In this document: one piece after another, positions 1,290-59,688 of the stretch
How the letters are laid out: every line of letters begins with the position of its first letter
Position numbering within the stretch: the first letter of the stretch is position 1
Assembly (NCBI GenBank): GCA_963840855.1
Contig: CAWJBB010000003.1
Coordinates: 1 to 64,000, forward strand
Source of the DNA: an uncultured delta proteobacterium
GTDB taxonomy: Bacteria; Desulfobacterota; Binatia; UBA9968
Length of the DNA: 64,000 bases
Reading direction: 5' to 3'
Position numbers and translations under genes: made by a program
Notes under the pieces: generated by a model
What the model was told of the DNA's origin: nothing
Database searches by the model: none
Seen by the model: only the letters and a program-made list of their open reading frames with translations

Positions 1290-2120
1290 TCACACCGTCA
1301 CCGTCTTCTTGGAATTTTGCGGCAACCGTTTCTCGCCGCGCTTAACCGCGGTCTCCCGCGGCTTCACGCCCAGAGCGAGACGCAGCCGCGCCACCGCCTG
1401 GCCAAAGATCTGGCAGATGCGCCCCTCGCTCAGTTCCAGAATCTCGCCGATTTCCCGTAGCGTCAGTTCTTCATGATAGTAAAGCGTCACGACCATACGT
1501 TCCCGCTCCGGCAGCGCTTCCACTGCGAAGCCGAGCTTCTGGATCATGTCCTTGCTCTCAACAAACGAGAGCGGGTCTACAAAAGCGCTTTGCAATTGCT
1601 TCTCCTGGCTATGCTCCCACTCCGATTCCGAAGACACGGACAAGTCTTCGAGACTGAGGAGCGTGGCGTCGTTCAACTGTTGGTCCACGCGGTAATAAGT
1701 ATCCAGGGGGATTTCCAGCTCCCGCGCCAGTTCTTCAGCACTGGGCTCGCGCACTAACTGGCCCGCCAGGCGGGCCTTTGCCGCTTCAATCTTGCGCCCC
1801 CAGGCGCGTACCGAGCGGCTCACCCAGTCCAGCGAGCGCAGACACTGCATGACTTCGCCCTGGATGCGGTAGCGGGCGAAAACTTCGAAGTCGACGCCGC
1901 GCTTGGGATCGTAGCGCTTGAGCGCCTCCAACAAGCCGCAGACCCCCGATTGAATTAGCGGTTCCAAATCGACCCCCGGCGGCAATCGGCGGTGAACCTT
2001 CTCTGCGACGTAGCGCACCAAAGGCAGATACCGGTTGACCAGCTCTTCACTGGGCGCATCCTTTTCGCGTTGGCGTAGCGCCGGCCGCGAATTTTTGGGT
2101 AGTTTGCTTTGTGCTTTCAT
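1290..2120 (-). CDS. fliA: Flagellar sigma factor FliA (sigma28)
   Basis: YLPLVRYVA, GLLEALKRYDP, region 4 LYYHEELTLREIGEILELSEGRICQI; follows flhF-flhG. Confidence 0.95.
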   Translation of the reverse strand: MKAQSKLPKNSRPALRQREKDAPSEELVNRYLPLVRYVAEKVHRRLPPGVDLEPLIQSGVCGLLEALKRYDPKRGVDFEVFARYRIQGEVMQCLRSLDWVSRSVRAWGRKIEAAKARLAGQLVREPSAEELARELEIPLDTYYRVDQQLNDATLLSLEDLSVSSESEWEHSQEKQLQSAFVDPLSFVESKDMIQKLGFAVEALPERERMVVTLYYHEELTLREIGEILELSEGRICQIFGQAVARLRLALGVKPRETAVKRGEKRLPQNSKKTVTV

Positions 2121-9961: not shown

Positions 9962-9977
9962 AGCAACCGATGTGCCA
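9962..9977 (-). promoter_or_regulatory. sigma54 promoter for the fliL-fliA operon
   Basis: Minus strand TGGCAC-ATCGG-TTGCT, perfect consensus. Confidence 0.85.
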
Positions 9978-10910: not shown

Positions 10911-11441
10911 CTAGTCGAGCAGGTATTTTTCGACGTTTTGGATGCGCTCCAGGAGGCGCATGAGGTGGAAGGGTTTGGGCATGTATTCGTCGGCGCCCAG
11001 GTCCAAGACCAAGTTCCGGTCTCCCGTTGACGCTCCCGCCGAAACGACGATGACGTAAGGCGGCTTGCCATCACCGCGCTCCCGGATCCGCCGTAGTACC
11101 GTAAAGCCGTCCATGCGCGGCAGCATCAAATCCAGCAGCACAAGGTCAATCTCTTCGTGGTCCATGATGTCGAGAGCCGATTCGCCGTCGCTGGCGGTGC
11201 GCACATGATAGCCGTAGCGCATGAAGTAGAGGCTCAACATATCGCAAAGCGAGCCGTGATCTTCAACGATCAGGATCGTGAGTTTCTTGTCGAGACTCTT
11301 GTCGCTGTTTTTCGCGAGCGCCCCCGGTCGCTTAGGGAAAGGGATCACACGCGCTTTGCGCTCTGCCACGCTCGGACTACGTGGGCCGGGCTGGGAATTT
11401 TCAATATCGAGTTTTCGTTTACGCATCACACTCACACGCAT
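10911..11441 (-). CDS. Single-domain response regulator with basic N-terminal extension
   Basis: ILIVEDH, LVLLDLMLP, VVSA, YMPKPF; no output domain. Confidence 0.85.
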   Translation of the reverse strand: MRVSVMRKRKLDIENSQPGPRSPSVAERKARVIPFPKRPGALAKNSDKSLDKKLTILIVEDHGSLCDMLSLYFMRYGYHVRTASDGESALDIMDHEEIDLVLLDLMLPRMDGFTVLRRIRERGDGKPPYVIVVSAGASTGDRNLVLDLGADEYMPKPFHLMRLLERIQNVEKYLLD

Positions 11442-12719: not shown

Positions 12720-13523
12720 ATGGCTGGAAAAGACAGCAAGCAGTCCCAGTCCCACAGCAAGGACGATAAGCCCAAAGTCATCATCAAAAAGGCCAAGGGC
12801 TACCACGGCGGCCACCCCCGCGGAGCGTGGAAAGTCGCTTACGCCGACTTCGTCACCGCTATGATGGCCCTATTTCTCGTCCTCTGGCTGCTCGGCGCTT
12901 CGAACAGTCAACAAAAGGCCGTCATCGCCCACTACTTTCGCGAACCCGCTGTTTTTAGCGGATCGCGCGGCATCATACCGCACGGCGGCGAGGACAAACT
13001 AGGCTCCGGAATCATTCAAGCGCCGTCAATGGAAGTCTTACAGATGCACATCAAAGAAGGGCTGGCGGGATTGAAGGAATTAGCCGAAATCTCCGAGCAG
13101 GTGCCGATCAAAATCACAGATGAGGGCCTGTTAATCGAGGTCATCGACAAGGACAAGCAAGCCTTTTTCGATCTGAGCAGCGCGGCGGTTAAGCCGCTCT
13201 TGCGCAAGGTCCTGAGCGCTGTCGTCAAGGAAATCAAGGATGCGACAAACAAAGTAGTGATCAGCGGCCACACCGACGCGCGGCCGTTTAAAAGCGAGAA
13301 GTATTATTCGAACTGGGACCTCTCCACCGAGCGTGCTTTAAATACGCGCCGCACCCTTGAAGAGTTGGGCCTGCCGTCGGAACGAGTGGAAAAAGTCGCG
13401 GGCTACGCGGACCGCCAGCTGCGCGTGCCGGACGACCCATTTAGCTCTGAGAACCGCCGCATCAGCATCCTGATCCGCAATTTGGAGAAAAATGAAGGCA
13501 AAAACAAAAAAGTGTTACCGTAG
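12720..13523 (+). CDS. motB: Flagellar stator MotB
   Basis: AWKVAYADFVTAMMALFLVLWL (proton-type-like), OmpA-like GHTD...NWDLSTERA...NRRISI. Confidence 0.96.
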   Translation: MAGKDSKQSQSHSKDDKPKVIIKKAKGYHGGHPRGAWKVAYADFVTAMMALFLVLWLLGASNSQQKAVIAHYFREPAVFSGSRGIIPHGGEDKLGSGIIQAPSMEVLQMHIKEGLAGLKELAEISEQVPIKITDEGLLIEVIDKDKQAFFDLSSAAVKPLLRKVLSAVVKEIKDATNKVVISGHTDARPFKSEKYYSNWDLSTERALNTRRTLEELGLPSERVEKVAGYADRQLRVPDDPFSSENRRISILIRNLEKNEGKNKKVLP

Positions 13524-13829
13524 ATTCTCGATGCGCCGCTCCGGGCTCACGACGTCAACGATACGGATGGCGAACTTCTCCCTGACCACCACGGCCTCTC
13601 CGTGAGCCATGAGCTTATTGTTAACCAGGATAGCCAGCGGTTCGCCGATCACTTGGTTCAATTCAATCACCGAACCCTGATTGAGCCTGAGAAGACTTTC
13701 GATGGTCATGCGCGCGCGCCCCAATTCCACCGTCACCTGCAAAGGGACATCCATCAGGAGCGATAGATCGACCTGATCCCCCCCGCCGCTTTTGTTGTTT
13801 TCCATTTCGAGTTCAGCCATAACATTCAC
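13515..13829 (-). CDS. fliN: Flagellar switch protein FliN
   Basis: LLMDVPLQVTVELGR, GSVIEL, HGEAVVV; 3' end overlaps convergent motB by 9 bp. Confidence 0.95.
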   Translation of the reverse strand: MNVMAELEMENNKSGGGDQVDLSLLMDVPLQVTVELGRARMTIESLLRLNQGSVIELNQVIGEPLAILVNNKLMAHGEAVVVREKFAIRIVDVVSPERRIENLR

Positions 13830-13840
13830 CGTCCTTAGAG

Positions 13841-14875
13841 TTATCGCGACACCGGACGCGGCTCCAATTTTTCCTTCGCCACGAACACCTTATTGCCACC
13901 GCGTTGCGCCGCCTTGCCGAGAAATTTTCGTTTCCCTTCGATCCAGAGTTCCACCTGATCCAAGCCCGGCGAGTTCATTTGAATCACGTCTCCGGGCCGA
14001 AGCCCCATAATATCGCCCAGGGTCATCTCTAACACATCAACCACCGCCTGTACTTCAAGCTCGATTTCGCCGACCTGCTGTTGCACCCGGCGAAAGAGCC
14101 CGATGTTATCCGGATCGTCTCCGATAGCAACCCCTGTCTTGAGCAGGGAGCGGAACTCTTCGATCGCGGCTAGCGGCAAGGCAAACAGCACCGTGCCGTT
14201 GATGGGCGACATGTTAACAGTGTAGGTGGCCAGAATCATGGGATCCCCAGGGCCCGCTGCATTCAGCAGATGGGGATTTAGCTCCGTACGCAGATAACGC
14301 CCCTGAAGCTGGACTACCGACTGCCATGACTCTTCCATGCCGCGCAGCATTCTTTCGACGAATTTGCCAAGAAACTTGTTCTCGATAGGTGTAAAATCAC
14401 GCCCTTCGACCTTCATCACCTTCTGGCCGCTACCGCCGAAAAAAAGCTCGACCATGGCAAAAGCCAAACTCGCCTCGATAACCAGGATGCCGATGCCGCG
14501 CAGCGGTTCCAGCCGGATCGCGTGAATACTAGCCGGTAACGGAAAACTTTGGATCAAGCTTTCGTAGGTAACCACTTCCATGCCCTCGAAGCTCACGTCC
14601 ACCGACTTTCCCAACTCGGTGGCGAACATGCTCTGGAGGCGGCGTGCGAAATCATTGAGGATAACTGCTAGGCCGGGCAAACGGCCGCGGGTTGTTGTCT
14701 CGCTGCGGGTGAAATCGTATGGCTTGGCGTCGTTGGCACCGGCACTGGTCTGAGCCAGGTGTTTATCCGGTGCACTCTCGCCTTTTGTCGGCGTGCTCTC
14801 GGTCGTCGGAAATTGCTGGCTAGCAACGCCATTCAATAACGCGTCTATCTCGTCTTGCCTAAGTACCTGTGCCAT
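13841..14875 (-). CDS. fliM: Flagellar switch protein FliM
   Basis: N-terminal CheY-binding VLRQDEIDALL, YDFT, GRDFTPIE, C-terminal SpoA domain. Start re-called at ATG 14875. Confidence 0.95.
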   Translation of the reverse strand: MAQVLRQDEIDALLNGVASQQFPTTESTPTKGESAPDKHLAQTSAGANDAKPYDFTRSETTTRGRLPGLAVILNDFARRLQSMFATELGKSVDVSFEGMEVVTYESLIQSFPLPASIHAIRLEPLRGIGILVIEASLAFAMVELFFGGSGQKVMKVEGRDFTPIENKFLGKFVERMLRGMEESWQSVVQLQGRYLRTELNPHLLNAAGPGDPMILATYTVNMSPINGTVLFALPLAAIEEFRSLLKTGVAIGDDPDNIGLFRRVQQQVGEIELEVQAVVDVLEMTLGDIMGLRPGDVIQMNSPGLDQVELWIEGKRKFLGKAAQRGGNKVFVAKEKLEPRPVSR

Positions 14876-14992
14876 TTCTCTCCCGCGCCGGGGCGCAACC
14901 GCTTCCACCGTCAATACCTTGGCGCTGCTTCGTCAATTCAAATGCGCCAGGACGTGAAAAATATTGATCAATGCGCTCGCTGCGAGAAGGTG

Positions 14993-15008
14993 AGCAAGGA
15001 TGGTGCCA
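14993..15008 (-). promoter_or_regulatory. sigma54 promoter for fliMN
   Basis: Minus strand TGGCAC-CATCC-TTGCT, perfect consensus. Confidence 0.85.
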
Positions 15009-15153: not shown

Positions 15154-16011
15154 TCAGAACTCAAAAGCAACGTCCAATTTCCCATCGGGCGAGGCCAGAT
15201 GCACGCAAACCACATCCTTGGCATTAAATGGATAGGGTTTGGCCGTTGTCTCATAGACTTCGGGCGGCTCCATGGTAAAGTTAAAACCGTTCTCCGAGAG
15301 CCGGGCGCAGGCATTGCCGTTGGCGATGTTGACAAATTCCTTGCTCGCATCGAGGGCCAGTTCGTCGGGCGCGTTCACCGTTTCGGCCAGCATCGTAGAA
15401 GCCATGTGCAGCAAAAGTTTCGGCGGTACCGAGAGCAAGCAATTAAATTCAACATTCTTGCCTGCGATCTTTTGCGAGAATACCCAGCGAAACAGCCGGA
15501 CCTTCTCTTTCCCGGTCTCGCACTGTTCGATTTTGAGCTCTTGCTTGGCGAAACGGGTGAACATGATCATCATCAAGTCGGTGAAGGTCTTGACCAGTTC
15601 TCGGTTGCGCACCTTGTCGAAGGCAGCCGCAAGTTCGAATGAAAGTTTTTCCTCGTCTTTATCGTATTCCTTGAACTCTTTTTCCAGCGCCGCAAGGGTC
15701 AAATAGCCCTTCGACACCAGCACGTCGCCGAGCAAGACTCGGTGGCTTGTCTCCTGCGCGCCCAGTAATTCGTCCACTTGAGTCTGCGTGAGTAGAGCTG
15801 ACAAAACTGCCTGTTCACCGAAGCGATAGTTGGTTTTCTTTTGCACATCGAGAATCTGCTTGATCTGCTCCGCCGTAAGCCAGCGCTTTTCAAGCGCCAG
15901 GATACCGATGGGCGGCGTCGCGGCCTTCTGGGTGTCGAGCGCCGAGGACAGCTGCTGCGAGGTGATCCGCCCTTTTTCCAGAAGGTATTGACCGAAGAAT
16001 CTTGAGCTCAT
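15154..16011 (-). CDS. Fusion of four MshEN-like repeats with a CheX/CheC-like phosphatase domain
   Basis: 24-aa repeats FFGQYLLEKGRITSQQLSSALDTQ / PIGILALEKRWLTAEQIKQILDVQ / RFGEQAVLSALLTQTQVDELLGAQ / LLGDVLVSKGYLTLAALEKEFKEY; C-terminal DASKEFVNIANGN and EPP (CheX ExxN motif). Confidence 0.75.
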   Translation of the reverse strand: MSSRFFGQYLLEKGRITSQQLSSALDTQKAATPPIGILALEKRWLTAEQIKQILDVQKKTNYRFGEQAVLSALLTQTQVDELLGAQETSHRVLLGDVLVSKGYLTLAALEKEFKEYDKDEEKLSFELAAAFDKVRNRELVKTFTDLMMIMFTRFAKQELKIEQCETGKEKVRLFRWVFSQKIAGKNVEFNCLLSVPPKLLLHMASTMLAETVNAPDELALDASKEFVNIANGNACARLSENGFNFTMEPPEVYETTAKPYPFNAKDVVCVHLASPDGKLDVAFEF

Positions 16012-16400
16012 AGCGCCACCCCGGCTTCTTGGCAGACGATATTTAGAGTTGAAAGCATGTGGTCTTTTTTCAATGGCTTTTGCAGAAAGCTTTTGGCGCC
16101 CTTCTTTAAACAGTCCTGCACCTCTGCTTCCGTGCCCATGGAGCTGACCATCACCACGCAGGCGGCGGTGTCCACGTGAAGGATATGCTCCAGCGTTTCC
16201 ACGCCATTTTCAACCGGCATGACGATGTCCAAGAGAACGACCTGCGGTCGATGCGCCTGATATTTTTCCAGCGCTTCTCGTCCGCTCGACGCCGTCGCCA
16301 CGACCTCGAAGCCAGTGTCTTTGAGATGCGCGGCAATCATTGCAATCATTGTTTTCGAATCGTCAACTACCAGAACTTTCACAGCTTTTGTGTTGCTCAC
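16008..16400 (-). CDS. cheY: CheY-like single-domain response regulator
   Basis: VLVVDDS, VVLLDIVMP, VMVSSMG, FLQKP; overlaps the CheX-fusion start (ATGA). Confidence 0.8.
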   Translation of the reverse strand: MSNTKAVKVLVVDDSKTMIAMIAAHLKDTGFEVVATASSGREALEKYQAHRPQVVLLDIVMPVENGVETLEHILHVDTAACVVMVSSMGTEAEVQDCLKKGAKSFLQKPLKKDHMLSTLNIVCQEAGVAL

Positions 16401-16453
16401 TCAAGGTTCTCCTTCTTCCGACGGCGCCCGCACCCACAGTGACTCATCCAAAT

Positions 16454-16480
16454 ATATCGGCAGCGGCCCAAACGAATTTA
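16454..16480 (-). promoter_or_regulatory. sigma28 promoter for the cheY + CheX-fusion pair
   Basis: Minus strand TAAA-N15-GCCGATAT. Confidence 0.8.
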
Positions 16481-16629
16481 GTCGATCCGCGACGGGAGAA
16501 TTCTCCCAAACGCCATGGGACTCGGTGCGAGCGGGGCATTTGCTCACTTTCGGTACCGCTCTGGTTGAAAATGCTCGTCACTTTGGTCCGACCCCTGGCT
16601 GTCGTGAATTTTCCGCCTCGCCAGCAAAC

Positions 16630-17736
16630 CTACTGCGCGTTACCCGCGACGCTAGAAGCGCAATGATGTGCGCTTAGAATTATCCCTGGAATCTGTTGCA
16701 AGGATGCGATGTTACGGACCGCGCCGTAGTCGATGGCTTCCTTCGACATTCCGAATACGACGCAGGTCTGCTCGTCTTGGGCAATAGTCAACGCTCCCGC
16801 TTGTTTCATCTCCAGCAGGCCCCGTGCGCCATCACTGCCCATACCAGTCAAAATCACACCGACGGCGTTGGGCCCGGCAGTCTGGGCCACTGAGCGAAAC
16901 AGCACATCGACACTGGGCCGGTGGCGCGAAACCAGAGGTCCATCGACCACCTCGGCGTAATAGGTGGTGCCACTGCGGCGCACCAGCATATGCCGATTGC
17001 CAGGGGCGATTAGCGCCCGCCCGTTGACGATCGCATCCCCCTGGGCAGCTTCCGTTACGTGGATCTTGCAGGTTTTGCTGAGGCGTTTAGCGAAAGCGGC
17101 GGTAAAGCCTTCCGGCATATGTTGGACCACCACGAACCCCGGGGCGTTCTCGGGCATGGCTTCGAGCAGCACACGCAACGCCTCCGTTCCTCCTGTTGAT
17201 GCGCCGATGGCGACGATCCTCTCGCTGTTCAGCGTCGGCGCTAAGGCGGCTCTTGCCGGCAGGACCGCATCAGCGCTGAGTGCCGGCGACGCCGTTGCGC
17301 TCGCGGGGCGACGCAGTTTCACGTTGGATTTGGCCGCCGCGCGTACGGCATCGATCAGAAGAACCGCCGACTCATAGAGAAACTCGCGCACTCCCAGGTT
17401 TGGTTTTGCCACCACGTCAATGGCGCCCTCTTCCAGCGCCTGTAACCCGAGAGCGGTCTCCTCGCCAACGTGGGCGGAGCATACAACCACGGGAATGGGG
17501 CTTTCAGTCATGAGCTTTCGAAGAAAAGCCAACCCACCCATTCGTGGCATTTCCAGGTCGAGTAGAATGACATCCGGTCGCTGCCTGGCCATCTTGGTCA
17601 TGGCAATAATGGGGTCGGCGGCCGTGGTGACGATAATTCCCCGCTCTTGTGACAGTACGGCGTTCATGACTTCGCGCACAACGGCCGAGTCATCGACGAC
17701 TAGAACGTGCAAAGGATTGACGGTGTCACTATTCAT
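16630..17736 (-). CDS. cheB: Chemotaxis methylesterase CheB
   Basis: REC domain plus IGASTGG, VQHMP, HRPSVD, LTGMGSDG. Confidence 0.96.
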   Translation of the reverse strand: MNSDTVNPLHVLVVDDSAVVREVMNAVLSQERGIIVTTAADPIIAMTKMARQRPDVILLDLEMPRMGGLAFLRKLMTESPIPVVVCSAHVGEETALGLQALEEGAIDVVAKPNLGVREFLYESAVLLIDAVRAAAKSNVKLRRPASATASPALSADAVLPARAALAPTLNSERIVAIGASTGGTEALRVLLEAMPENAPGFVVVQHMPEGFTAAFAKRLSKTCKIHVTEAAQGDAIVNGRALIAPGNRHMLVRRSGTTYYAEVVDGPLVSRHRPSVDVLFRSVAQTAGPNAVGVILTGMGSDGARGLLEMKQAGALTIAQDEQTCVVFGMSKEAIDYGAVRNIASLQQIPGIILSAHHCASSVAGNAQ

Positions 17737-18623
17737 CGAACGCCACTCGCTTCCTGGCGCGGCACGCCGCCCCTAATGCCCAATTCCCCTCGGCCGACGC
17801 GAACATAGATCGTCGGCGAAATATTCAAAATTTTATGCATCAGGCCGTTCAATTGTTCCGCATGTCCGATAAAAAAAAAGCCGCCGGGGGCAAGATGCTC
17901 CAGCAGCCGATCGGCAACTCGGGCTCTATGGGCATCGTCAAAATAGATCAGCACATTGCGGCACAAAATGATGTCAAAGAGGCTCGTCACCGGATAAACC
18001 TTGTCATTAAGATTGAGCCGTTCAAAGCGGATCACCGAGCGAATTTCCGCTCCCGCCTTCATTTTTCCCGACTGCTCTCCCGTCCCTTTCAACATGAAGC
18101 GTTTGAGGTATACATCGGGAATATTCTTTGCCTTTTCAATGGGCCAAATGGCTTGTCGCGCCCGTTCGAGGGCCCGGTTCGATATATCTGTGGCGAGAAT
18201 CTCGATCTCCCATCCCGCCGACGGCGGAAAATAATTCCAGAGAATCATGGCCAGGGAATAGGGCTCCTCGCCGGTCGAACAGCCGGCGCTCCACACGCGC
18301 ATATGTCGTGGACGCAATCCGGCGTCGGCCTGCGCCGTCCAATCGTGAACAACGAGCCGGGATAAAAAATCAAATTGCCGCGGCTCGCGAAAAAAGTGCG
18401 TTTCATTGGTCGAAACGCGGTCAAGCATTTCAACGATTTCCTCGTCCCAGTTTTCTAGTAGGTAATTGTAATACGCCGTAAACGAGTCCAGACCCAAGTG
18501 AAATATGCGTTTGCCGAGACGCGCTTCCAACAACGGTTTTTTTGCCGGCAAAAGGTATATACCCGCCTGTTGATGAATCAGCTTCTGAAATAGGCTGAAT
18601 TCCTGGTCTGTAATCAGAATCAT
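17733..18623 (-). CDS. cheR: Chemotaxis methyltransferase CheR
   Basis: TNETHFFRE, WSAGCSTGEEPYS, CRNVLIYFD. Confidence 0.96.
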   Translation of the reverse strand: MILITDQEFSLFQKLIHQQAGIYLLPAKKPLLEARLGKRIFHLGLDSFTAYYNYLLENWDEEIVEMLDRVSTNETHFFREPRQFDFLSRLVVHDWTAQADAGLRPRHMRVWSAGCSTGEEPYSLAMILWNYFPPSAGWEIEILATDISNRALERARQAIWPIEKAKNIPDVYLKRFMLKGTGEQSGKMKAGAEIRSVIRFERLNLNDKVYPVTSLFDIILCRNVLIYFDDAHRARVADRLLEHLAPGGFFFIGHAEQLNGLMHKILNISPTIYVRVGRGELGIRGGVPRQEASGVR

Positions 18624-18643
18624 GGGCTAACGCGAAAACCTCG

Positions 18644-19126
18644 CTAGGCCGCGGCGCTCGTCGGGAGCCCGCCGTTCAGCAACACCTTGTCGACATCGAG
18701 CAGCAGAACAAACGTTTCCCCGACCCGACCAACGCCACGCAAAAAATCCTCCCGCACTCGGGTACCGAACGTCGGCGCCGGCAAAATTTCGTCGGGGGAA
18801 AGTTCCAAAACTTTGCTGACCGAGTCGGCGAGAATCCCCGTGAGAACTGGTTTGCCCGTCAAATTCGCCTCCACGATGATTATGCAGGTCCGTCCGGTAA
18901 TAGGGCTCGGGGGCAGGCCGAATCGTAGTGCCAGGTCCAGCACCGCCACGACATTGCCGCGCAAGTTGATCACCCCCAGAATAAACGGTGGTGTTTGCGG
19001 CACTCTGGTTAGGCTACGATATCCGATGATCTCTCTCACCTGCATGAGACTCAGACCATATTCCTGCCCCGACAATTGAAAGGTCATATGCTGACCATGC
19101 CCGCCGATGATTTCCGCCGCCTTCAT
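18644..19126 (-). CDS. cheW: Chemotaxis coupling protein CheW
   Basis: VREII, TRVPQTPPFILGVINLRG, GILADSV. Confidence 0.95.
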   Translation of the reverse strand: MKAAEIIGGHGQHMTFQLSGQEYGLSLMQVREIIGYRSLTRVPQTPPFILGVINLRGNVVAVLDLALRFGLPPSPITGRTCIIIVEANLTGKPVLTGILADSVSKVLELSPDEILPAPTFGTRVREDFLRGVGRVGETFVLLLDVDKVLLNGGLPTSAAA

Positions 19127-19271
19127 CGTTGACTTCTCCTATTCTTCATCGGCTCCGATCGCCCCCCATTCTTTTCGATCTCTCCTTCTGAATTCTGACT
19201 CCCGTCTATTGTGTTCCGCTTTCATCTTTCGCTTTCATCCTTCCCCGTTCTTCACAGATCTACACCTATTT

Positions 19272-20924
19272 CTAAGCCCAAGGCCTGAATTCTTGGTCCC
19301 CTCCGCTAGCACGCCGGTCCGTTCGCATGGTGTTACGGGGCTGGTAGAACTCAAAGGTTGAGTTTCTCCGGCTCACCGGCGCCGCGTTGCCAGTCTGGTG
19401 CCCCTTGGCGGAATCTATTTGGAAGAAACTAATAAAATACTTGAGAGTCTCAGCTTGGGACGCCATTTCTTCTGCGGTACTTGACAATTCCTCCGCGGCC
19501 GACGCGTTTCTCTGGGTTACCTGATCCACGTGGGTCATGGCGCGGTTCACTTGCGCTACTCCAGCGGACTGCTCACGTGATGCCGTGGCTACCTCTTGCA
19601 CCAACTCGGCCGTCTTCCTGATTGCCGGCGCCAGCTCCCGCAGAAGTTCGCCGGAGCGTTCCGCCACTTTGACGCTGGAGGCTGCCAACGCACTAATTTC
19701 TTGCGCCGCGCCCTGACTCCGTTCCGCTAGCTTGCTCACCTCGGCGGCGACCACCGCGAACCCCTTCCCGTGCTCTCCCGCACGGGCCGCTTCGATAGCC
19801 GCGTTCAAGGCCAACAAATTGGTTTGATAAGCGATCTCTTCGATGATCGTAATCTTTTCCGCTATCGTCTTCATCGCCTCCACCGACTCCGCCACCGCTC
19901 TGCCGCTCTGCTCCATGTCCTTAGCGCCCTTAAGAGCCATCTGCTCCATCTGCCGGCTATTTTCAGCGTTCTGCGTGATTGAGGCGTTCATCTGCTGCAA
20001 ACTCGCGGTGGTCTCCTCCACCGACGCCGCTTGTTCACTGGTACCCTGGGACAGCGTCTGGGCCGATGAGGAGACCAACGCCGAAGCGGACGCCAATCCG
20101 TTGGAGGCGTTGCGCACCTCTCCAATAACCTGCGAGAGATTACCCATGAAAGAGTTGAACAGCTGCGCAACCTCCCCGATCTCGTCTTGGGAATTCACGT
20201 CCAAGCGTTTGGTAAGATCCCCATCGCCTTTGGTAATATCATGCAAGCGCTCTACGAGTCCGTTGATCGGCTTGGTGATACTGCGCGACACACCCAAAGT
20301 GATGACGACAATCATGACGGCGGTGGCGCCCAGCAGAGCAAGCATGATTTGGATGGTTTGTGCGACATAACTTGCCAAATGCTGCTCGCTGGCGCTCAGC
20401 TTCTGTTTATAGTCTCGGGCCATGTCCATTGCGATTTTTTCCAGCCGACCCATAATCGCCGTATAACTTTCAATCGCATCATTCGCGTCTTGCGGTTTTT
20501 TGATGGCTCCGGTTCTAACCTGTTCCGCGATTTTGAGAAAACCATCCGCGTACGCCGCAAGTTCCCGGCGCATAGCCGTCGTAGTGTAATTGTCGTAGTC
20601 ACGATGGGTGTAATGATCAATGGCTTCGATACTCTTTTCCATCAGAACGCGCTGCTCGATCCATTTTTTGATACTCTCTTCCACTTTTGCCGGCTGACCG
20701 ATGTTAAGAAAGACGTCTTTTTCAAAGCGACGCAGGCCCAAACTGTGAGCCACGTTCCACGCCGCACGTTCGGCCACTTCAGCGTCGCCTTTGATCACCT
20801 GGACCGAAAAGCTCTCGACCTTGCTCACTGCCCAATACGCCGCCACCGCCATAACTCCCATCATGGCCATGATCAAGGCAAAGCCGAGACCCACACGACT
20901 GGCGATTCTAATACGCTTGAACAT
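19272..20924 (-). CDS. Methyl-accepting chemotaxis protein (2 TM, HAMP, 34H-like signalling domain)
   Basis: [30 protein letters not shown]; C-terminal EFRPWA resembles a CheR-tethering pentapeptide. Confidence 0.95.
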
Positions 20925-20962
20925 GACTTTCTCCTTTGCCTACCAGCAACCTATCTCTTCCG

Positions 20963-22658
20963 CTACCGCTCTTGTTCGATCAGGGGTAGTGCGTTGGCGG
21001 GAATCACTTGACTAGAACTTTGGATCACGTCTCGGAGCACACTTGGAATATCCAGAATCAGCGCCACACGTCCATTGTCGAGGATCGCCGAGCCAGCGAT
21101 ACTCGAGGAGCGGAAAAACTGTTTGTCCAACGGCTTGATCACCGTTTGGCGCGGACCGTAGAGCGTGTCTACCACGATCCCGGCCTTTACGCCCTGGGAT
21201 GCCACGACGACGACAGATTCGCGCCCCGGACGCGACGCCTCGATACCGAAACGGTGGCGTAGGCGAACGTAAGGAAGAGGCTCGCCGCGCAAGTTGATCA
21301 TTCCTCGGCCGTTGGCGCCAGCCTGTTCTTGGCCGACAAATGGCCAGCACTCCCGCACTGCATGTAACGGAATAATATAAGTATCGTCGCCGACGCCGAC
21401 ACCGAAACCTTCGATGATCGCCAGCGTCAGCGGCAAACGGATAGTGAACGTAGTACCCCTGCCCGCTTCGCTTTGAAGCCCCACAGATCCACGCACGGCT
21501 TCGATGTCGCGCCTAACGACCTCCATACCGACGCCGCGTCCCGACAGGTCCGTGATGGTCGCCGCCGTCGAAAACCCCGGTTCGAAAATGAACTGGAAAA
21601 TATCCTGTTCGGATAATCTGTCGCCGTCCGCGACCCAACCCCGCTCTTTGGCGCGGGTAATAATGCGCTCACAATTCAAGCCGGCGCCGTCGTCGATGAG
21701 CTGCACGACGATGTTACCTCCCTCGTGGAAAGCTCTGAGAGTGAGAAGGCCACAGGGGTCTTTTCCCCGCGCGCGGCGCGTCTCGGGCGATTCGATGCCG
21801 TGATCGATGGCGTTACGGACCATGTGCGTGAGCGGATCTTTGAGATGCTCGACCACGCTGAGATCGATCTCCGCCTCTTCGCCTTCCAAGGCGAGGCGCG
21901 CCTCCCGACCCGCCGCCAGCGCGACATCGCGTACGACCCGAGCATACTGGCGAAAAACCGGGCCCACGGGCACCATGCGGACTTTCATGATCTCTTCTTG
22001 TAAATCCAAAGACAGGCGTTCCAATTGCTCGTGGGCTTCAACGGCGTCTTTTCTGGCTTTTTCGCCGCCCAAGGCCTGGTGCAATCGTCCCTGAGCGATG
22101 GCGATTTCCCCAGCGAGATTGAGCATACGGTCGAGCTTTTGAATGTCCACACGGATCGTGCCGTTGCGCGCGCCACCAACGGCTCCATCCTCGCGCCTGC
22201 GGCAACCGGCGGCAGGTTCCTCTATATTTTCCGCCTCGGCTGAGGGCGGATGCTCGATGCCGACGCCGCCCTCGGCAAGCCTAACGAGCAACGCCGCGTA
22301 ATCCGACTTGCGTTGCTCCTCCCCGGCTATCGCCCCAGGCAACATTTCGCGCAGCGCATCAGCAGACTGGAGCAAGAGTGTTACCGTCTTGCGACTTACC
22401 GGAATCAGTCCGGCGCGCAAGCGCTGCAAGAGACTTTCTAACGCGTGGGTGAACTCAGCCACCGCGGCAATTCCCAGACTAGCAGCATTACCCTTTATCG
22501 TATGAGCACCGCGAAAAATCGTATTGAGAAGTTCTCGGTTCTCGGGATGCGACTCCAGGGCTACCATCGCCTCTTCCATTTCAGCGATGCGCTCTTCGCA
22601 TTCCGCAGCGAAGGTGCGTACGGATTGATTCGAGATCTATATCGATGTCTAGAGCCAT
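20963..22658 (-). CDS. cheA: Chemotaxis kinase CheA (no P2 domain); apparent +1 frameshift at about 22622
   Basis: IFRGAHTIKG, HMVRNAIDHGIE, SGRGVGM, P5. Upstream ATG 22658 with RBS gives MALDIDIDLESI, then after one extra C, VRTFAAECEERIAEMEE. Confidence 0.9.
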
Positions 22659-22866: not shown

Positions 22867-23436
22867 CTAAAGGTACTTGATCCATGACGTACCATCGTCC
22901 GTGTTGAAGACGAGCTTACGGCCCCTACGTCCTGCCAGGTCCCGCTCCACCACTGGGATATTCTGCATGTGCAACATATTTTCAGCCAGCCGAGCGTTGA
23001 CGATCCCAACATGATCTTTCCTTTCCCGAAATGCCTCGATGACACAGGCACCGCCGAAGAGTTTCGCCCGTAACCGATTCTTGCGCGCTCCGAGAGAAAG
23101 GACTTTTTCGATCAAAGTCTCGATCGCTACTGTGCCAAAACGGGGCGATGCTATATCGTCCCCCACCCAGAATGGCAACAAATAATGATTGATGCCGCCG
23201 ATTTTCAGCACCGGGTCCCAAAGACACAGGGATACGCAGGAACCGAGAATGGTAGTAACGGCGCAGGGATAGGCGGCAGTAAAGAGTTGGCCAGGGTGAA
23301 GATACACCTTAGTCCGCGCGCCGCTATCCGGGGCCACTCGCAGTCTCCCGTTGTCCGCAACGGCACACGCCGTCCAACCCCCTACCAAGGTCTGTGCAGC
23401 AGCAGAGTTTGCATTGGTTTTAAATTTCGGCGTCAT
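22867..23436 (-). CDS. cheD: Chemoreceptor glutamine deamidase CheD
   Basis: TTILGSCVSLCL, GGINHYLLP, AKLFGGA, GRRGRKL. Confidence 0.93.
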   Translation of the reverse strand: MTPKFKTNANSAAAQTLVGGWTACAVADNGRLRVAPDSGARTKVYLHPGQLFTAAYPCAVTTILGSCVSLCLWDPVLKIGGINHYLLPFWVGDDIASPRFGTVAIETLIEKVLSLGARKNRLRAKLFGGACVIEAFRERKDHVGIVNARLAENMLHMQNIPVVERDLAGRRGRKLVFNTDDGTSWIKYL

Positions 23437-24223: not shown

Positions 24224-24607
24224 TTACATAGCCAGAAAGCTGCGTATCTTGGTGAGCAATTCCAGGCTGTCAATGGGCTTGGTGATGTAGTCGCTGCAAC
24301 CGCTTAGGTAGCCGGTTTCCATGCTTTCTTCTTCCCCCTTCGTAGTTACAATAAGAATGGGAATCGACCGGGTCTCGGGGCGTCGACGCAACTCACGTAT
24401 CGCGTCGAACCCGTTCATCTTCGGCATGATCACGTCCATCAGAATCAAATCTGGTCTCAGCGCCAGCGCCTTGGCAATCGCTTCCTTGCCGTCTTTTGCC
24501 ATCGTCAGTTCGTAACTACCCCCCTTGAGAATCATCCGCTCCAACATGAGAACGGTTTCCGAATCATCCACCAACAGAATTTTCTTGTTGCCCCTATTTT
24601 CGGACAT
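24224..24607 (-). CDS. Single-domain response regulator heading the che operon
   Basis: ILLVDDS, LILMDVIMP, IVTT, YITKP. Start re-called at ATG 24607. Confidence 0.88.
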   Translation of the reverse strand: MSENRGNKKILLVDDSETVLMLERMILKGGSYELTMAKDGKEAIAKALALRPDLILMDVIMPKMNGFDAIRELRRRPETRSIPILIVTTKGEEESMETGYLSGCSDYITKPIDSLELLTKIRSFLAM

Positions 24608-24699
24608 CGCTAGACCGCCTTTCCACGCCCACGGTATGCCACGGACTTCCTGGCGTCGCGCTCTAGGCAGCCTGGCTCGAATCAAATTAAGCGAGCCAA

Positions 24700-24715
24700 C
24701 GCAATAAGCTTGCCA
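24700..24715 (-). promoter_or_regulatory. Putative sigma54 promoter for the che operon
   Basis: Minus strand TGGCAA-GCTTA-TTGCG. Confidence 0.65.
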
Positions 24716-24853
24716 CGGCGATACTAGATTGGATTGCTGGTAAAAGCTCGATCGCGATACTGTCCTCCGCTCCTCGGCGAGCCAAATTTGCACCCGTGCG
24801 CGATGGAAACCCAGGGACACTTTGAGGCGATGAGGAAACTTACGAGCCTGGCT

Positions 24854-24867
24854 GTCATTTCCTTGAC
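24854..24867. promoter_or_regulatory. Candidate enhancer (FleQ-box-like) between divergent sigma54 promoters
   Basis: gtcatttccttgac (GTCA-N6-TGAC). Confidence 0.4.
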
Positions 24868-25048
24868 GCGAGCCACCCCGGCCTCCCGCCTGCGAACCAG
24901 TCAAACACAAGAAAACACGGACGCACGTTGCACCTTGTGACAGTTTTTCGTCTATCGCCGTCCAATTACGGCCGCTAAAGTTGATTCCAACTCCGCCAGA
25001 GCCCTATTGATCCCTAGACTTTCGTCAAACCATCAAAAATCTCACTGC

Positions 25049-28044: not shown

Positions 28045-28306
28045 GGCGCCCTAACCCCATCCCTCTCCTAGTAGCGAGAGAAGGTAACAGGCGCAGAGAC
28101 GCAACCAAAGATGAAAGCGCAAACTTTACCACGAAGGACGCGAAGGGAACGAAGCTCAAGAGCAAAAATAACCAACGCCTCATGGCTTTCCTGCGCTTCT
28201 TAGTGAGAAACTGTTCCATTGAGTGCCGCAGCGGCGATAAATGGCGGTCAGAAATCTTGCTCAAACTGGCAAACCATACAGATCCAGTAATACGGAACTT
28301 TTGCAC

Positions 28307-39722: not shown

Positions 39723-40676
39723 TTACTCCGAAGCTGCGCGCGCGGCGGTCAGGGATGTTATTTTGCCGTCGCATTCGACGCGATTTCTCCCCAACTCTTT
39801 GGCGCGATAAAGCGCCCGGTCGGCGGCGTCTATCAGCGCGCCGGCCTCTCGCATGTTTTCAACCGTCGCCTCGCTGACGCCGGCGCTGGCGGTGATGAGC
39901 AACTGACCCGCCGGGGTAACCACTGGAGTGGCGCTCAGCGCCTTGCGGACTCGTTCCGCTATCTCCGCAGCCGACCGCAAGTCACAGCTAGGCGCCACAG
40001 TGAGAAACTCCTCGCCACCGTAGCGGCCGACCACATCGTACGGCCGTAGGACCGCGTTTATCCGGTGAGCTGACTCTCGCAACACCCGATCACCCACGCT
40101 GTGGCCGTAAGTATCGTTGACCTGTTTAAAGTGATCTAGATCGAAAAGAATTACCCCCACGGGGGTCTTTTCACGCGTGGCGCGGTCGAGTTCGCCGACC
40201 AGTCGTTCGATTATCGCCCCGTGATTCCAAAGTCCGGTCAAACCGTCATGGGTTGCGCGAATCTCGAGCTCGGTCTGCGCAGCCAATAATTCATGCTGCA
40301 AGTCGAGGATGCGCCGCCCCGCGCGCAGGCGCGCTTTTAGTTCCTGCGAGTTAAACGGTTTGGTAATATAGTCATCGGCGCCGGCCTCTATGCCCTGGAC
40401 CAGATCGTTCAACTTGTCCATCGCTGTAAGCAAAATCACATAGACATAAGGCCCGTTCTTGCGCCCGCGCAGTTTGCGACAGATGTCCGGGCCGGTCACC
40501 CCCGGCATTAGCCAATCGAGAATCGCCAGATTGGCAGCCCCGGGCGCCTGCAAGGCAGACCACGCCTGGCCGCCGTCGCAAGCGATCTCGACTTGATAGC
40601 CGAGCTTCTCGAGAGTCGTACGCAACAACATCCGGGTCGTTGCGTCATCGTCTGCGATGAGTATTTTCGTATTCAT
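39723..40676 (-). CDS. REC-GGDEF diguanylate cyclase response regulator
   Basis: REC (LDWLMP, YITKP); [15 protein letters not shown]-site RPYD, active-type GGEEF. Start re-called at ATG 40676. Confidence 0.92.
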
Positions 40677-40792
40677 CTTTGGTCTTCGGGTTCGGGACGG
40701 AAGGTGAGCAGAGCAGCCGATCGTGACTCCTGCTGCCACTCATCGGCGGTATAAAGTCTCAAATAATTTCTCCGTCCCTCGATGCGCCACGG

Positions 40793-45205: not shown

Positions 45206-45232
45206 GCAATGTCTCGCTGCGCCGAAGGCGGT

Positions 45233-45538
45233 CTAGTGGGTCACCTGGAAAAGCTGGTCGAAGTGGCAAAGCCGCAGAACCTTCTCGACGTACTCCTGGG
45301 GCCGGTCGAGCACCACGGCACCGCCGGCTTTTTCGCAATTTTCGCGGGCCAGGAGGAGCATCCCTAGAGCCGAGCTATCGATAAAGCTCACCTCTGACAA
45401 ATCCAGGGTCAGCTCGGAATGGCCTGCGCGCAGCAGGCCCTCCACAGTTCTGCGAAATTCCATGTGCGCCTGAAAATCGAACCGCCCCTTGAGGGAGACA
45501 GTCGTATTACTGGATCCTTCCCTGACGCTGATGTTCAT
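45233..45538 (-). CDS. STAS anti-anti-sigma factor, HsbA-like
   Basis: GRFDFQAHMEFR, FIDSSALGMLLLAR, FDQLF. Confidence 0.9.
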   Translation of the reverse strand: MNISVREGSSNTTVSLKGRFDFQAHMEFRRTVEGLLRAGHSELTLDLSEVSFIDSSALGMLLLARENCEKAGGAVVLDRPQEYVEKVLRLCHFDQLFQVTH

Positions 45539-45542
45539 AACT

Positions 45543-59684: not shown

Positions 59685-59688
59685 GGAC

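What the first reader, a model, noticed from the sequence alone, without database searches (positions are those of the whole stretch)
15154..16480. sigma28-driven CheY plus MshEN-repeat/CheX fusion: candidate c-di-GMP-gated CheY phosphatase
Seen: a two-gene unit with its own near-consensus sigma28 promoter, directly upstream of fliMN. The second gene has four tandem 24-aa repeats with 5-6 aa linkers, fused to a CheX-type ExxN domain. Established: MshEN is a c-di-GMP receptor built from tandem 24-aa RLGxxLxxxGxIxxxxLxxxLxxQ motifs with a 5-aa linker, and CheX dephosphorylates CheY-P. Inference: c-di-GMP, possibly from the REC-GGDEF at 39723, could tune CheY-P lifetime directly, a motor brake distinct from PilZ/YcgR. 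Only repeat 3 keeps the canonical Arg (RFG), so binding is uncertain.
Basis: partly seen in the sequence, partly recalled or inferred. Interest (0 to 1): 0.8.

Follow-up and report, generated by a model that had tools for sequence, protein, structure and literature searches.

The report
CheX phosphatase with c-di-GMP-type sensor
[quoted passage not shown] The design was listed in a 2016 survey but apparently never tested, so it is a good experimental lead and not a new kind of system.

Summary
On the minus strand a 130-aa CheY (16008-16400) overlaps by ATGA a 285-aa protein (15154-16011). That protein has four 24-aa MshEN-type motifs (NCBIfam NF053729, 64 bits, cut-off 38) and a CheX domain with the catalytic E225/N228.

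An exact TAAA-N15-GCCGATA sigma-28-type site lies 54 nt upstream of cheY. fliA is in the same window. fliMN follow behind an exact sigma-54 consensus.

AlphaFold models (pLDDT 95 and 94) give a CheX fold (Z 21) and an MshE-like c-di-GMP-binding bundle (Z 11.8). The bundle is built from motifs 2+3, not from tandem pairs 1+2 and 3+4.

The CheY/CheX pairing is conserved in 69 of 80 related loci across many phyla, and REC-fused forms exist. This is the only CheC/CheX/CheZ-type phosphatase found in the 94%-complete genome.

The architecture "(MshEN_N)2-CheX" was already catalogued by Wang et al. 2016 (Suppl. Table 4). I found no experimental study. This scan has reported the same family before on other genomes. 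c-di-GMP binding and gating remain untested.

Verdict: new member of a known, uncharacterised kind.

The parts
16455..16480 (-). sigma-28-type promoter-like site TAAA-N15-GCCGATA(T), 54 nt upstream of cheY
   Evidence: Exact pattern match, the only one in the window. Both boxes are kept while the spacer diverges in orthologous loci L008, L009 and L010. fliA is at 1290-2120 (230.7 bits, cut-off 189.6). Function is untested.
16008..16400 (-). cheY, 130-aa single-domain receiver, the likely substrate
   Evidence: Pfam Response_reg E 1.9e-26. Its best NCBIfam hit is a CheY model. D13, D14, D58, S86/S87 and K108 are invariant in 58 partner receivers.
15154..16011 (-). 285-aa MshEN-motif/CheX fusion protein; its ATG overlaps the cheY stop (ATGA)
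   Evidence: AlphaFold2 model has pLDDT 95.4 and pTM 0.84.
15928..15999 (-). motif 1 (residues 5-28, FFGQYLLEKGRITSQQLSSALDTQ)
   Evidence: Position 1 is aromatic across the family (R/K/P/N in 2 of 188).
15841..15912 (-). motif 2 (residues 34-57), equivalent to MshE motif I in the model
   Evidence: Model residues 32-89 superpose on MshE residues 7-64 (Z 11.7, rmsd 1.3 A, 58 aa; Z 11.8).
15754..15825 (-). motif 3 (residues 63-86, RFG...Q), equivalent to MshE motif II; the only motif that fully meets Wang's relaxed pattern
15664..15735 (-). motif 4 (residues 93-116); its second helix runs on to residue 132 as the connector to CheX
15157..15615 (-). CheX domain (residues 133-285)
   Evidence: VIA-align: T. 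maritima CheX 1squ_A Z 21.0, rmsd 2.0 A, 149 aa; B. burgdorferi CheX of the CheX-CheY3 complex 3hzh_B Z 18.5. Foldseek 6vpw_A E 6e-11.
15328..15351 (-). predicted catalytic segment D221-x3-E225-x2-N228
   Evidence: In 188 family sequences: E 186, N 180, D 165. Aligned to the E..N of solved CheX chains.
14994..15008 (-). exact sigma-54 consensus TGGCAC-N5-TTGC upstream of fliM
   Evidence: 11 matches at up to 1 mismatch against 5.0 expected; none of 100 shuffles reached 11. Sequence seen.
13515..14914 (-). fliM and fliN (switch complex); FliM carries an N-terminal LRQDEIDALL peptide
   Evidence: Pfam FliM E 3.6e-43 and FliMN_C. Sequence. That this peptide is the CheY-binding motif is recalled knowledge.
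16630..22579 (-). upstream che genes cheA-mcp-cheW-cheR-cheB
39723..40739 (-). REC-GGDEF diguanylate-cyclase-type gene (GGEEF, RxxD), a possible c-di-GMP source
   Evidence: It is one of 4 GGDEF matches in the genome. The link to the phosphatase is inference only.
1290..2120 (-). fliA (sigma-28)

Best explanation
The 285-aa protein is a CheX-type CheY-P phosphatase. Its N-terminal eight-helix module, made of four MshEN-type 24-residue motifs, is a sensor for c-di-GMP. It is made together with its substrate, the CheY encoded immediately upstream, by translational coupling and probably from a late, sigma-28-type promoter. It shortens the life of CheY-P, the signal that acts on FliM at the flagellar switch.

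Ligand binding at the site formed by motifs 2+3 would be passed through the long helix (residues 106-132) to the CheX domain. That would change how fast CheY-P is removed, so c-di-GMP level would set switching bias and signal lifetime directly.

Shown: domain identity, predicted folds, conserved catalytic and ligand-contact positions, the conserved CheY partnership, and the gene context.

Inferred: c-di-GMP binding, phosphatase activity on this CheY, coupling between the two, and its direction (activation or inhibition), which I cannot tell.
For: Sensor. NF053729 scores 64.2 bits against a cut-off of 38, in 4 stretches. The same model hits this gene three times in the genome scan.

In an unbiased search of 48,161 chains with the N-terminal model (pLDDT 93.6), the five best hits are all MshE/PilF/PilB/XpsE N-domains. 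MshE with c-di-GMP (5htl_B) gives Z 11.8 over 59 aa at 27% identity; unrelated rows score about 4-5.

The ligand-contact positions named in passages of Wang et al. (hydrophobic 2, Gly 3, hydrophobic 17/21, Gln 24) are present in motifs 2 and 3 of the query: I35, G36, I50, L54, Q57 and F64, G65, V79, L83, Q86. They are widely kept in the family: G36 in 164, G65 in 162, position 57 within Wang's accepted set [QNKRYWST] in 179 and position 86 in 183 of 188; Gln itself is 89% and 91% of 128 sequences.

Phosphatase. CheX fold with Z 21.0. E225 is kept in 186 of 188 and N228 in 180 of 188.

Partner. A receiver gene is adjacent in 69 of 80 related loci, and in 55 of 59 loci with at least 800 nt on both sides. 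One more locus, L049, overlaps and was missed by the script.

Of 15 odd-length relatives checked, 6 are REC-sensor-CheX fusions and 4 are sensor-CheX-REC fusions. The partner receivers keep the phospho-acceptor residues.

Context. The pair sits between cheA-mcp-cheW-cheR-cheB and fliMN.

It is the only CheX/CheC match and there is no CheZ match in the genome, which is 94% complete.

The genome has GGDEF genes, one of them in this cluster.

The sigma-28-type site is conserved in 3 orthologous loci, and fliA is present.
Against: No binding or activity was measured.

In the query only motif 3 has the canonical Arg. R43 and A72 replace the turn Gly of motifs 2 and 3.

The family departs systematically from Wang's relaxed motif:
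- position 1 is R/K/P/N in 2 of 188 sequences for motif 1 and 16 of 188 for motif 4;
- motif 2 position 21 is hydrophobic in only 47 of 188;
- the full relaxed motif is met in 1, 27, 70 and 4 of 188 for motifs 1 to 4.

Homologous N-domains can lose c-di-GMP binding; XpsE is named in a passage of Wang et al..

21 of 188 relatives lack Gly3 in both motifs 2 and 3, and 20 of those 21 keep E225/N228. So the phosphatase does not need an intact site.

The MshEN_C subdomain is absent.

Outside the closest relatives the pair is mostly not next to flagellar genes. The family's general target may therefore be a non-motor receiver.

A low-depth contig from an RNA library (16309-16474) runs through the -10 box. 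If it is RNA, it started upstream of the predicted sigma-28 start. The library may also hold DNA.
Confidence: 0.55

Rival explanations
1. The N-terminal module is a degenerate MshEN relative that no longer binds c-di-GMP. It serves as a dimerisation, localisation or protein-binding domain of an otherwise ordinary, constitutive CheX.
For: The canonical Arg is missing in 3 of 4 motifs and the turn Gly is replaced in motifs 2 and 3. There are systematic family deviations from the relaxed motif. The same fold occurs in N-domains that bind a protein or have lost the ligand: X. citri PilB N-domain with PilZ, 7lkm_A Z 8.1, and XpsE, 2d28_C Z 7.5; the XpsE loss is stated in a passage of Wang et al.. 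21 of 188 relatives have lost both central Gly yet keep the active site.
Against: The curated motif model is passed well above its cut-off. The best structural matches are the c-di-GMP-bound forms at 25-28% identity, well above PilB and XpsE at 9-13%. Gly3 and position 24 (Gln in 89-91% of 128 sequences) of motifs 2 and 3 are kept in about 86-97% of 188 sequences from many phyla, including the query.
Confidence: 0.25
2. The pair is a phosphate sink and does not switch off the motor-binding CheY. The neighbouring receiver drains phosphate from CheA (or another kinase), and the fused sensor sets how fast the sink empties. The motor would then be tuned only indirectly.
For: The receiver-plus-phosphatase pair travels as an autonomous module. 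In other phyla it lies beside HisKA-type kinases, REC-HD-GYP, GAF-GGDEF or housekeeping genes. It is sometimes one polypeptide. The window holds two further receiver genes, at 10911-11441 beside motAB and at 24224-24910.
Against: In this window the partner lies inside the che operon next to fliM. Its best NCBIfam match is a CheY model, whereas the two other receivers match OmpR/PhoB/PleD-type receivers best. FliM keeps its N-terminal peptide.
Confidence: 0.15
3. The module binds a different nucleotide, such as 3'3'-cGAMP, or c-di-GMP in an unusual stoichiometry. The reason would be that motifs 1 and 4 carry aromatic residues where MshE has Arg/Gln.
For: A figure legend of Wang et al. reports weaker cGAMP binding by MshEN. 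Position 1 of motifs 1 and 4 and position 24 of motif 4 are conserved aromatic or hydrophobic residues.
Against: The backbone-amide Gly3 contacts that select guanine are kept in all four motifs of the query. Nothing here points to another ligand.
Confidence: 0.05

Closest known systems
'(MshEN_N)2 - CheX' architecture, example Geobacter lovleyi Glov_2742 (ACD96455), in Wang et al. 2016, Nat Commun 7:12481, Supplementary Table 4 (seen: main-text passages and supplement passages)
   Same: Four MshEN_N-type motifs without the MshEN_C subdomain, fused to CheX. The survey lists it for Deltaproteobacteria and Firmicutes and reads it as c-di-GMP input into chemotaxis.
   Different: That entry is a catalogue line without experiments. 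I could not fetch Glov_2742 to align it; a Desulfuromonadales relative, L081, is 29% identical. The models here pair motifs 2+3, not two tandem domains. The conserved CheY partner and the REC fusions are not in the passages I saw.
Vibrio cholerae MshE N-terminal domain with c-di-GMP (PDB 5HTL) and Thermus thermophilus PilF GSPII-B with c-di-GMP (8PDK and mutants)
   Same: Two 24-residue motifs joined by a 5-residue linker form a four-helix unit. Model residues 32-90 superpose at Z 10.6-11.8 and 25-28% identity.
   Different: Those are regulatory domains of T2SS/T4P ATPases and carry the MshEN_C subdomain. Here two further motifs flank the unit, Arg is partly replaced, and the output is a phosphatase.
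CheX of Thermotoga maritima (1SQU/1XKO) and Borrelia burgdorferi (3HZH, complex with CheY3-BeF3)
   Same: Same fold (Z 18.5-21.0) and the same single E..N active-site segment.
   Different: Classical CheX is about 150 aa with no sensor domain. Dimerisation of this protein was not tested.
Vibrio cholerae PlzC-CheX (PNAS 2026, PMC12799141; seen: abstract and passages)
   Same: A c-di-GMP receptor protein controls a CheX phosphatase and so controls CheY-P and motility.
   Different: There the receptor is a separate PilZ protein that inhibits CheX independently of c-di-GMP binding. Here the putative receptor is fused to CheX and is of the MshEN type.
PilZ-type controls of motility (YcgR; MapZ-CheR1; Cle proteins; as listed in passages of PMC12799141)
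   Same: They link c-di-GMP to flagellar behaviour after transcription.
   Different: They act on the motor, on CheR or as CheY-like proteins. None acts through a c-di-GMP-binding CheY-P phosphatase.

Membership tests
MshEN_N-type c-di-GMP receptor module | Tandem 24-residue motifs RLGxx(L/V/I)(L/V/I)xxG(L/V/I)(L/V/I)xxxxLxxxLxxQ joined by about 5 residues | tested here: met
   NF053729 E 7e-18, 64.2 bits against a cut-off of 38, 4 stretches. Motifs lie at residues 5-28, 34-57, 63-86 and 93-116 with linkers of 5, 5 and 6. Against Wang's relaxed pattern, motif 3 fits fully, motifs 2 and 4 miss one position each, and motif 1 misses two.
MshEN_N-type c-di-GMP receptor module | Four-helix unit superposable on the ligand-bound MshE domain | tested here: met
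   Predicted models only. 5htl_B gives Z 11.7-11.8, rmsd 1.3-2.1 A, 58-59 aa, with model residues 32-90 on MshE 7-65. It is the top hit among 48,161 chains. This holds for motifs 2+3; no hit aligned to motifs 1+2 or 3+4.
MshEN_N-type c-di-GMP receptor module | Ligand-contact residues: Arg 1, hydrophobic 2, Gly 3, hydrophobic 17 and 21, Gln 24 | tested here: inconclusive
   Positions 2, 3, 17, 21 and 24 are kept in motifs 1-3 of the query; motif 4 has Tyr at position 24. Arg 1 is present only in motif 3 (F, P and L elsewhere). Passages of Wang et al. rate Arg as less critical than Gly and Leu.
MshEN_N-type c-di-GMP receptor module | Specific binding of c-di-GMP | not testable with these tools
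   Needs ITC, DRaCALA or a co-crystal structure.
Full MshEN domain (MshEN_N + MshEN_C/T2SSE_N1) | Presence of the C-terminal T2SSE_N1 subdomain (Pfam PF05157) | tested here: not met
   PF05157 does not hit this protein. It does hit a 281-aa four-motif protein elsewhere in the same genome. This is therefore the 'MshEN_N only' class.
CheX (CheC/CheX/FliY phosphatase superfamily) | CheX alpha/beta fold | tested here: met
   1squ_A Z 21.0, rmsd 2.0 A, 149 of 152 residues; 6vpw_A Z 20.7. Pfam CheX E 2.5e-10, over its cut-off.
CheX (CheC/CheX/FliY phosphatase superfamily) | Single active-site segment D/S-x3-E-x2-N followed by Pro about 22 residues later (consensus recalled) | tested here: met
   D221, E225 and N228 are present, with P249/P250 at N+21/22. 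In the family: E 186, N 180, D 165 of 188. Aligned to the E..N of solved CheX chains.
CheX (CheC/CheX/FliY phosphatase superfamily) | Acceleration of CheY-P dephosphorylation | not testable with these tools
   Supported only by context: an adjacent receiver in 69 of 80 loci and REC fusions.
Sigma-28 (FliA) dependent promoter | TAAA-N15-GCCGATAA-like boxes at a suitable distance, with a FliA present | tested here: inconclusive
   Exact TAAA-N15-GCCGATA 54 nt before the start. The boxes are kept in 3 orthologous loci while the spacers diverge. fliA is present. The other 9 exact matches in the genome are not before recognisable flagellar genes. No transcript start could be mapped.

The most novel reading that the evidence does not exclude
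The four motifs are not two tandem MshEN_N domains. They form one nested eight-helix sensor. Motifs 2+3 make the canonical c-di-GMP site. Motifs 1+4 clasp it, with conserved aromatic residues where MshE has Arg/Gln. They either form a second, different pocket or couple ligand binding to the long output helix.

This protein is the only recognisable CheY-P phosphatase of the organism. c-di-GMP would therefore directly set the lifetime of the chemotaxis signal, a route from c-di-GMP to the motor that has not been shown experimentally in any bacterium.
Probability: 0.3. Interest if true: 0.6.

Novelty: new member of a known kind. Interest (0 to 1): 0.4.

Why it matters
c-di-GMP is known to slow or stop flagella through PilZ brakes, transcription factors and CheR or receptor adaptors. 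A CheY-P phosphatase that itself senses c-di-GMP would be a further, very direct route, acting on signal lifetime and not on torque.

The family is large: 682 representative clusters at E <= 1e-10. It is spread over many phyla and always comes with its own receiver, so one biochemical test would explain many genes.

Here it appears to be the sole CheY-P phosphatase in the genome, which makes the predicted effect on behaviour strong. The 2+3 pairing suggests which residues to mutate first.

Tried and rejected
(1) Complex prediction with the full protein, the CheY and two c-di-GMP gave 'no answer' (score 0.17, mark 0.32). It counts neither for nor against binding.

(2) Mean-field coupling analysis on the whole protein was dominated by gap-rich columns, so I discarded it. 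Restricted to residues 1-122 (Meff 189, weak, column 87 noisy), it gave inter-motif couplings 2-3 (5), 1-4 (3), 2-4 (2) and 1-3 (1) among the top 60, and none for 1-2 or 3-4. This is suggestive only and is not independent of AlphaFold.

(3) Co-loss of Gly3 in motifs 2 and 3 looks very strong in raw counts (159/5/3/21, Fisher 3.5e-20). On a CheX-domain tree there are only 2 supported independent contrasts (7 on all branches). They are concordant but cannot reach significance, so I do not use the p-value.

(4) I could not derive the organism's sigma-28 consensus from flagellin. The only Flagellin_N match in the assembly is FlgL behind FlgK.

(5) Transcript evidence. Short contigs of one soil RNA library lie on parts of both genes at 99% or better, but such libraries may hold DNA and contigs show no ends. 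Uncovered parts mean nothing.

(6) Sequence search of the PDB found MshE only at E 0.11, and Foldseek E-values for the small N-domain were weak at 0.17. The match became clear only by structural Z-scores.

(7) Weak Pfam hits to FumaraseC_C and DUF4388 reflect the same helical hairpin (fumarase 7c18_A Z 7.3) and not a function.

(8) Literature searches 'MshEN'+'CheX' (2 papers), 'MshEN'+'chemotaxis'+'phosphatase' (17 papers, 15 listed), 'Glov_2742' (0) and 'CheX'+'c-di-GMP receptor' (4) turned up no experimental study of the fusion. Subscription journals are not covered.

(9) No solved structure matched the whole eight-helix module; the best Z spanning residues 1-135 was about 5.
Full report
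WHAT IS THERE

The window is a large flagellar and chemotaxis cluster. It holds fliA, flhF, flhA, flhB, fliR, fliP, fliO and fliL, then motAB, fliN and fliM, then the two genes in question, then cheB, cheR, cheW, an mcp, cheA and cheD. Further along are several hybrid kinases, a REC-GGDEF, flgE-type genes, fliK/J/I/H/G/F/E, flgC/B and two sigma-54 activators.

On the minus strand, cheB ends at 16630. A 229-nt spacer follows. Then comes a 130-aa receiver (16008-16400) and a 285-aa ORF (15154-16011) whose ATG overlaps the receiver's stop as ATGA. After a 239-nt gap come fliM and fliN.

The 285-aa protein passes NCBIfam NF053729 ('cyclic di-GMP-binding domain, MshE-related'): E 7e-18, 64.2 bits against a cut-off of 38, four stretches. 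It also passes Pfam CheX (E 2.5e-10) and CheC (8.2e-5) in residues 188-258.

The four motifs occupy residues 5-28, 34-57, 63-86 and 93-116, with linkers of 5, 5 and 6 residues. The extra linker residue T88 is absent from 99% of 128 aligned sequences, the query plus 127 relatives.

The promoter-like site TAAATTCGTTTGGGCCGCTGCCGATA (16455-16480) is the only exact TAAA-N15-GCCGATA in the window. It lies 54 nt before the GTG start, behind which an AGGAG precedes the start.

Both boxes are retained while the spacer has diverged in the three closest orthologous loci that also have fliM downstream, L008, L009 and L010, where CheY identity is 70-98%. A fliA gene scoring 230.7 bits (cut-off 189.6) lies at 1290-2120.

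The pattern is only mildly enriched genome-wide: 10 matches against 3 for the reversed control. The other nine do not precede recognisable flagellar genes. The promoter call therefore rests on position and local conservation, not on a regulon.

The gap before fliM holds an exact sigma-54 consensus, TGGCACCATCCTTGC, at 14994-15008. This agrees with cheY plus the fusion gene being a unit separate from fliMN. No terminator-like site was found in the gap.

FOLDS

With an alignment of 127 sequences (query plus 126 relatives at 24-62% identity to it), AlphaFold2 gives pLDDT 95.4 and pTM 0.84.

Residues 133-285 are a CheX fold. T. maritima CheX 1squ_A gives Z 21.0 at rmsd 2.0 A over 149 residues. The B. 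burgdorferi CheX of the CheX-CheY3 complex, 3hzh_B, gives Z 18.5. Foldseek gives 6vpw_A at E 6e-11.

The N-terminal 135 residues folded alone reach pLDDT 93.6. In a search of 48,161 representative chains that does not rely on Foldseek, the five best matches are all N-domains of MshE/PilF/PilB/XpsE-type ATPases. They are led by MshE with c-di-GMP (5htl_B: Z 11.8, 59 residues, 27% identity) and PilF GSPII-B with c-di-GMP (Z 10.6). Unrelated rows score about 4-5.

Z values near 12 can arise for helical bundles by chance. Here, though, the hits are the expected family, they stand clear of the rest, and they cover the whole 53-residue ligand-binding unit.

AN UNEXPECTED DETAIL: MOTIFS 2+3 FORM THE MSHE-LIKE UNIT

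Every MshE-type hit, in both models, aligns to model residues 31-91. That is motifs 2+3, with P34 on MshE R9, Q57 on Q32, R63 on R38 and Q86 on Q61. No hit aligns to motifs 1+2 or 3+4.

By sequence, all three adjacent pairs match the 53-position profile, at 38, 33 and 25 bits. The pairing is therefore a structural prediction.

Three observations fit it.

First, family conservation is mirror-like. Motifs 2 and 3 start with K/P/R or R/K. Motifs 1 and 4 start with aromatic or hydrophobic residues, and motif 4 ends in F/Y instead of Q.

Second, a weak coupling analysis (Meff 189) finds inter-motif couplings 2-3 (G36-G65, I35-L82, Q57-G65, Q57-F64, A39-A68), 1-4 (I16-L98, S23-Y103, A24-L98), two for 2-4 and one for 1-3 among the top 60 pairs. 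It finds none for 1-2 or 3-4.

Third, Gly3 of motifs 2 and 3 is kept or lost together: 159 sequences keep both, 21 keep neither, 8 are discordant. Other motif pairs show no such link.

There are caveats. The coupling signal is what AlphaFold also uses. On a tree built from the CheX domain, the co-loss reduces to 2 supported independent contrasts, which is too few for significance. No solved structure matches the whole eight-helix module.

DOES THE SENSOR LOOK FUNCTIONAL?

Passages of Wang et al. 2016 state the following. Each motif binds half of c-di-GMP, mainly through hydrophobic contacts. Gly3 and the next residue give the guanine-specific backbone hydrogen bonds. Gln24 binds ribose and phosphate. 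Changing Arg9 altered affinity no more than fivefold, whereas Leu or Gly changes cost more than tenfold.

In the query all four motifs keep hydrophobic 2, Gly3 and hydrophobic 17/21, and motifs 1-3 keep Gln24.

Across 188 family sequences filtered at 80% identity, G36 is kept in 164 and G65 in 162. Position 57 lies within Wang's accepted set [QNKRYWST] in 179 and position 86 in 183 of 188; Gln itself is 89% and 91% of 128 sequences.

Against this:
- The family seldom meets Wang's relaxed pattern in full: 1, 27, 70 and 4 of 188 for motifs 1 to 4.
- Motif 2 position 21 is usually Asn or His.
- The query has R43 and A72 at the turn positions.
- 21 of 188 relatives have lost the central Gly pair, and 20 of those 21 keep the CheX active site.
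- Wang et al. note that the homologous XpsE lost binding.

I put c-di-GMP binding at about 60%.

THE PHOSPHATASE AND ITS PARTNER

D221, E225, N228 and G232 are kept in 165, 186, 180 and 181 of 188 sequences. E225 and N228 align to the E..N of solved CheX chains.

A receiver gene lies directly beside the gene in 69 of 80 related loci from Binatia, Nitrospirota, Planctomycetota, Elusimicrobiota, Sericytochromatia, Clostridia, Spirochaetia, Oceanospirillales and others. The breakdown is 53 upstream and 16 downstream. Among loci with at least 800 nt on both sides the count is 55 of 59. L049, with a 3-nt overlap, was missed by the script.

Of 15 odd-length relatives checked, 6 are REC-sensor-CheX, 4 are sensor-CheX-REC and 1 adds PAS-HisKA-HATPase.

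The 58 aligned partner receivers keep D13, D14, D58, S86/S87 and K108.

In this window the partner's best NCBIfam match is a CheY model. The two other receivers of the window match OmpR/PhoB/PleD-type receivers best.

The genome is 7.1 Mb in 93 contigs and 94% complete. It has no other CheX/CheC match and no CheZ match, although cheD is present. It has four GGDEF matches. One is the REC-GGDEF at 39723-40739, with GGEEF and RxxD.

CONTEXT OUTSIDE THE CLOSE RELATIVES

Only L008-L011 have fliM downstream. Related Binatia-type loci keep cheR-cheB-cheY-fusion. More distant loci place the pair beside HisKA kinases, a REC-HD-GYP (L040), a GAF-GGDEF (L069), DUF4388 proteins (L060), a CheA (L072), an MCP (L039) or plain housekeeping genes.

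The conserved unit is therefore 'receiver + sensor-phosphatase'. Its attachment to the flagellar switch is a feature of this lineage.

MECHANISM I COMMIT TO (confidence 0.55)

A CheX-type phosphatase acts on the co-translated CheY. Its activity is modulated by c-di-GMP bound at the motif 2+3 site and relayed through the long helix 106-132. The direction of the effect is open.

Rivals are a degenerate, ligand-free N-domain (0.25), a phosphate-sink role for the pair (0.15) and another nucleotide ligand (0.05).

WHAT IS KNOWN

Wang et al. [quoted passage not shown] Their main text names CheX among the domains joined to MshEN (I read passages, not the whole paper).

Four full-text searches found no experimental work on the fusion. 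Subscription journals are not covered.

A 2026 paper shows a PilZ protein, PlzC, inhibiting V. cholerae CheX independently of c-di-GMP (abstract and passages). So the c-di-GMP/CheX connection is of current interest but is different in kind.

Public annotation calls these proteins simply 'CheX'. Pfam's 'MshEN' model covers only the C-terminal subdomain that is absent here.

Earlier reports of this scan, on at least 19 other genomes, reached the same reading. I saw them after my own. None of the notes I could search mentions the 2+3 pairing.

VERDICT

This is a new member of a known, uncharacterised kind.

The points added here are the 2+3 (and probably 1+4) topology, the sigma-28 / sigma-54 promoter arrangement, and the apparent status of this protein as the only CheY-P phosphatase of the genome.

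Noticed in passing
window 14994-15008 (-); also 9963-9977 (-), 60964-60978 (-), 56760-56774 (+): Exact sigma-54 consensus TGGCAC-N5-TTGC sites. The first is upstream of fliM. At up to 1 mismatch there are 11 sites against 5.0 expected, and none of 100 shuffles reached 11. Two sigma-54 activators lie at 58317-59906 and 60996-62177.
   Followed up: partly
L001:1297-2142 (+) (own genome, contig C66): A 281-aa stand-alone protein with four canonical MshEN motifs (NF053729 at 54 and 45 bits, for pairs 1+2 and 3+4 only) plus the Pfam 'MshEN' C-terminal subdomain and no ATPase. Its motif 2-3 linker is shorter, unlike the even spacing in the CheX fusion.
   Followed up: partly
window 43976-45992 (-) and 46148-46480 (-): A partner-switching set lies inside the flagellar cluster: REC-SpoIIE phosphatase, STAS protein and an HATPase_c_2 anti-sigma-type kinase. 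Upstream is a sigma-28-like site with one mismatch (46455-46480) before a 71-aa ORF that starts like a receiver but has no Pfam hit. It may be a broken gene or an assembly error.
   Followed up: partly
window 22867-23436 (-): cheD is present, but its usual partner CheC is not found anywhere in the genome. The only CheC-like match is the fusion protein itself.
   Followed up: partly
window 25138-28044 (+): A 968-aa ORF has no convincing Pfam family (best E 9e-5, below cut-off). It lies beside a KaiC-type ATPase gene (28241-29023) in the middle of the che/flagellar cluster.
   Followed up: no
family alignment (proteins P0001-P0270 and loci L008-L087): 21 of 188 relatives have lost Gly3 in both motifs 2 and 3, and 20 of them keep the CheX catalytic E and N. 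This is a sub-group with an apparently dead sensor. The losses need at least 7-10 changes on the tree, but few sit on supported branches.
   Followed up: partly
window 16481-16655: A contig of a related strain in run X1 (probably DNA) joins 16481 to 16655. It lacks the 173 nt between cheB and the -35 box but keeps the promoter-like site and leader, with 5 other letters in 65. This is a single contig laid at 90% likeness, so it is a weak observation.
   Followed up: no
own genome, contig C9 24560-24955 (-): The only Flagellin_N match in the assembly is FlgL, directly behind FlgK. No flagellin gene was found in the 94%-complete assembly.
   Followed up: partly
L040:4927-7901 and L069:2101-3777: In distant relatives the receiver/sensor-CheX pair lies next to c-di-GMP turnover genes: PAS-histidine kinase, REC and REC-HD-GYP in an Elusimicrobiota locus, and GAF-GGDEF in another.
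   Followed up: no
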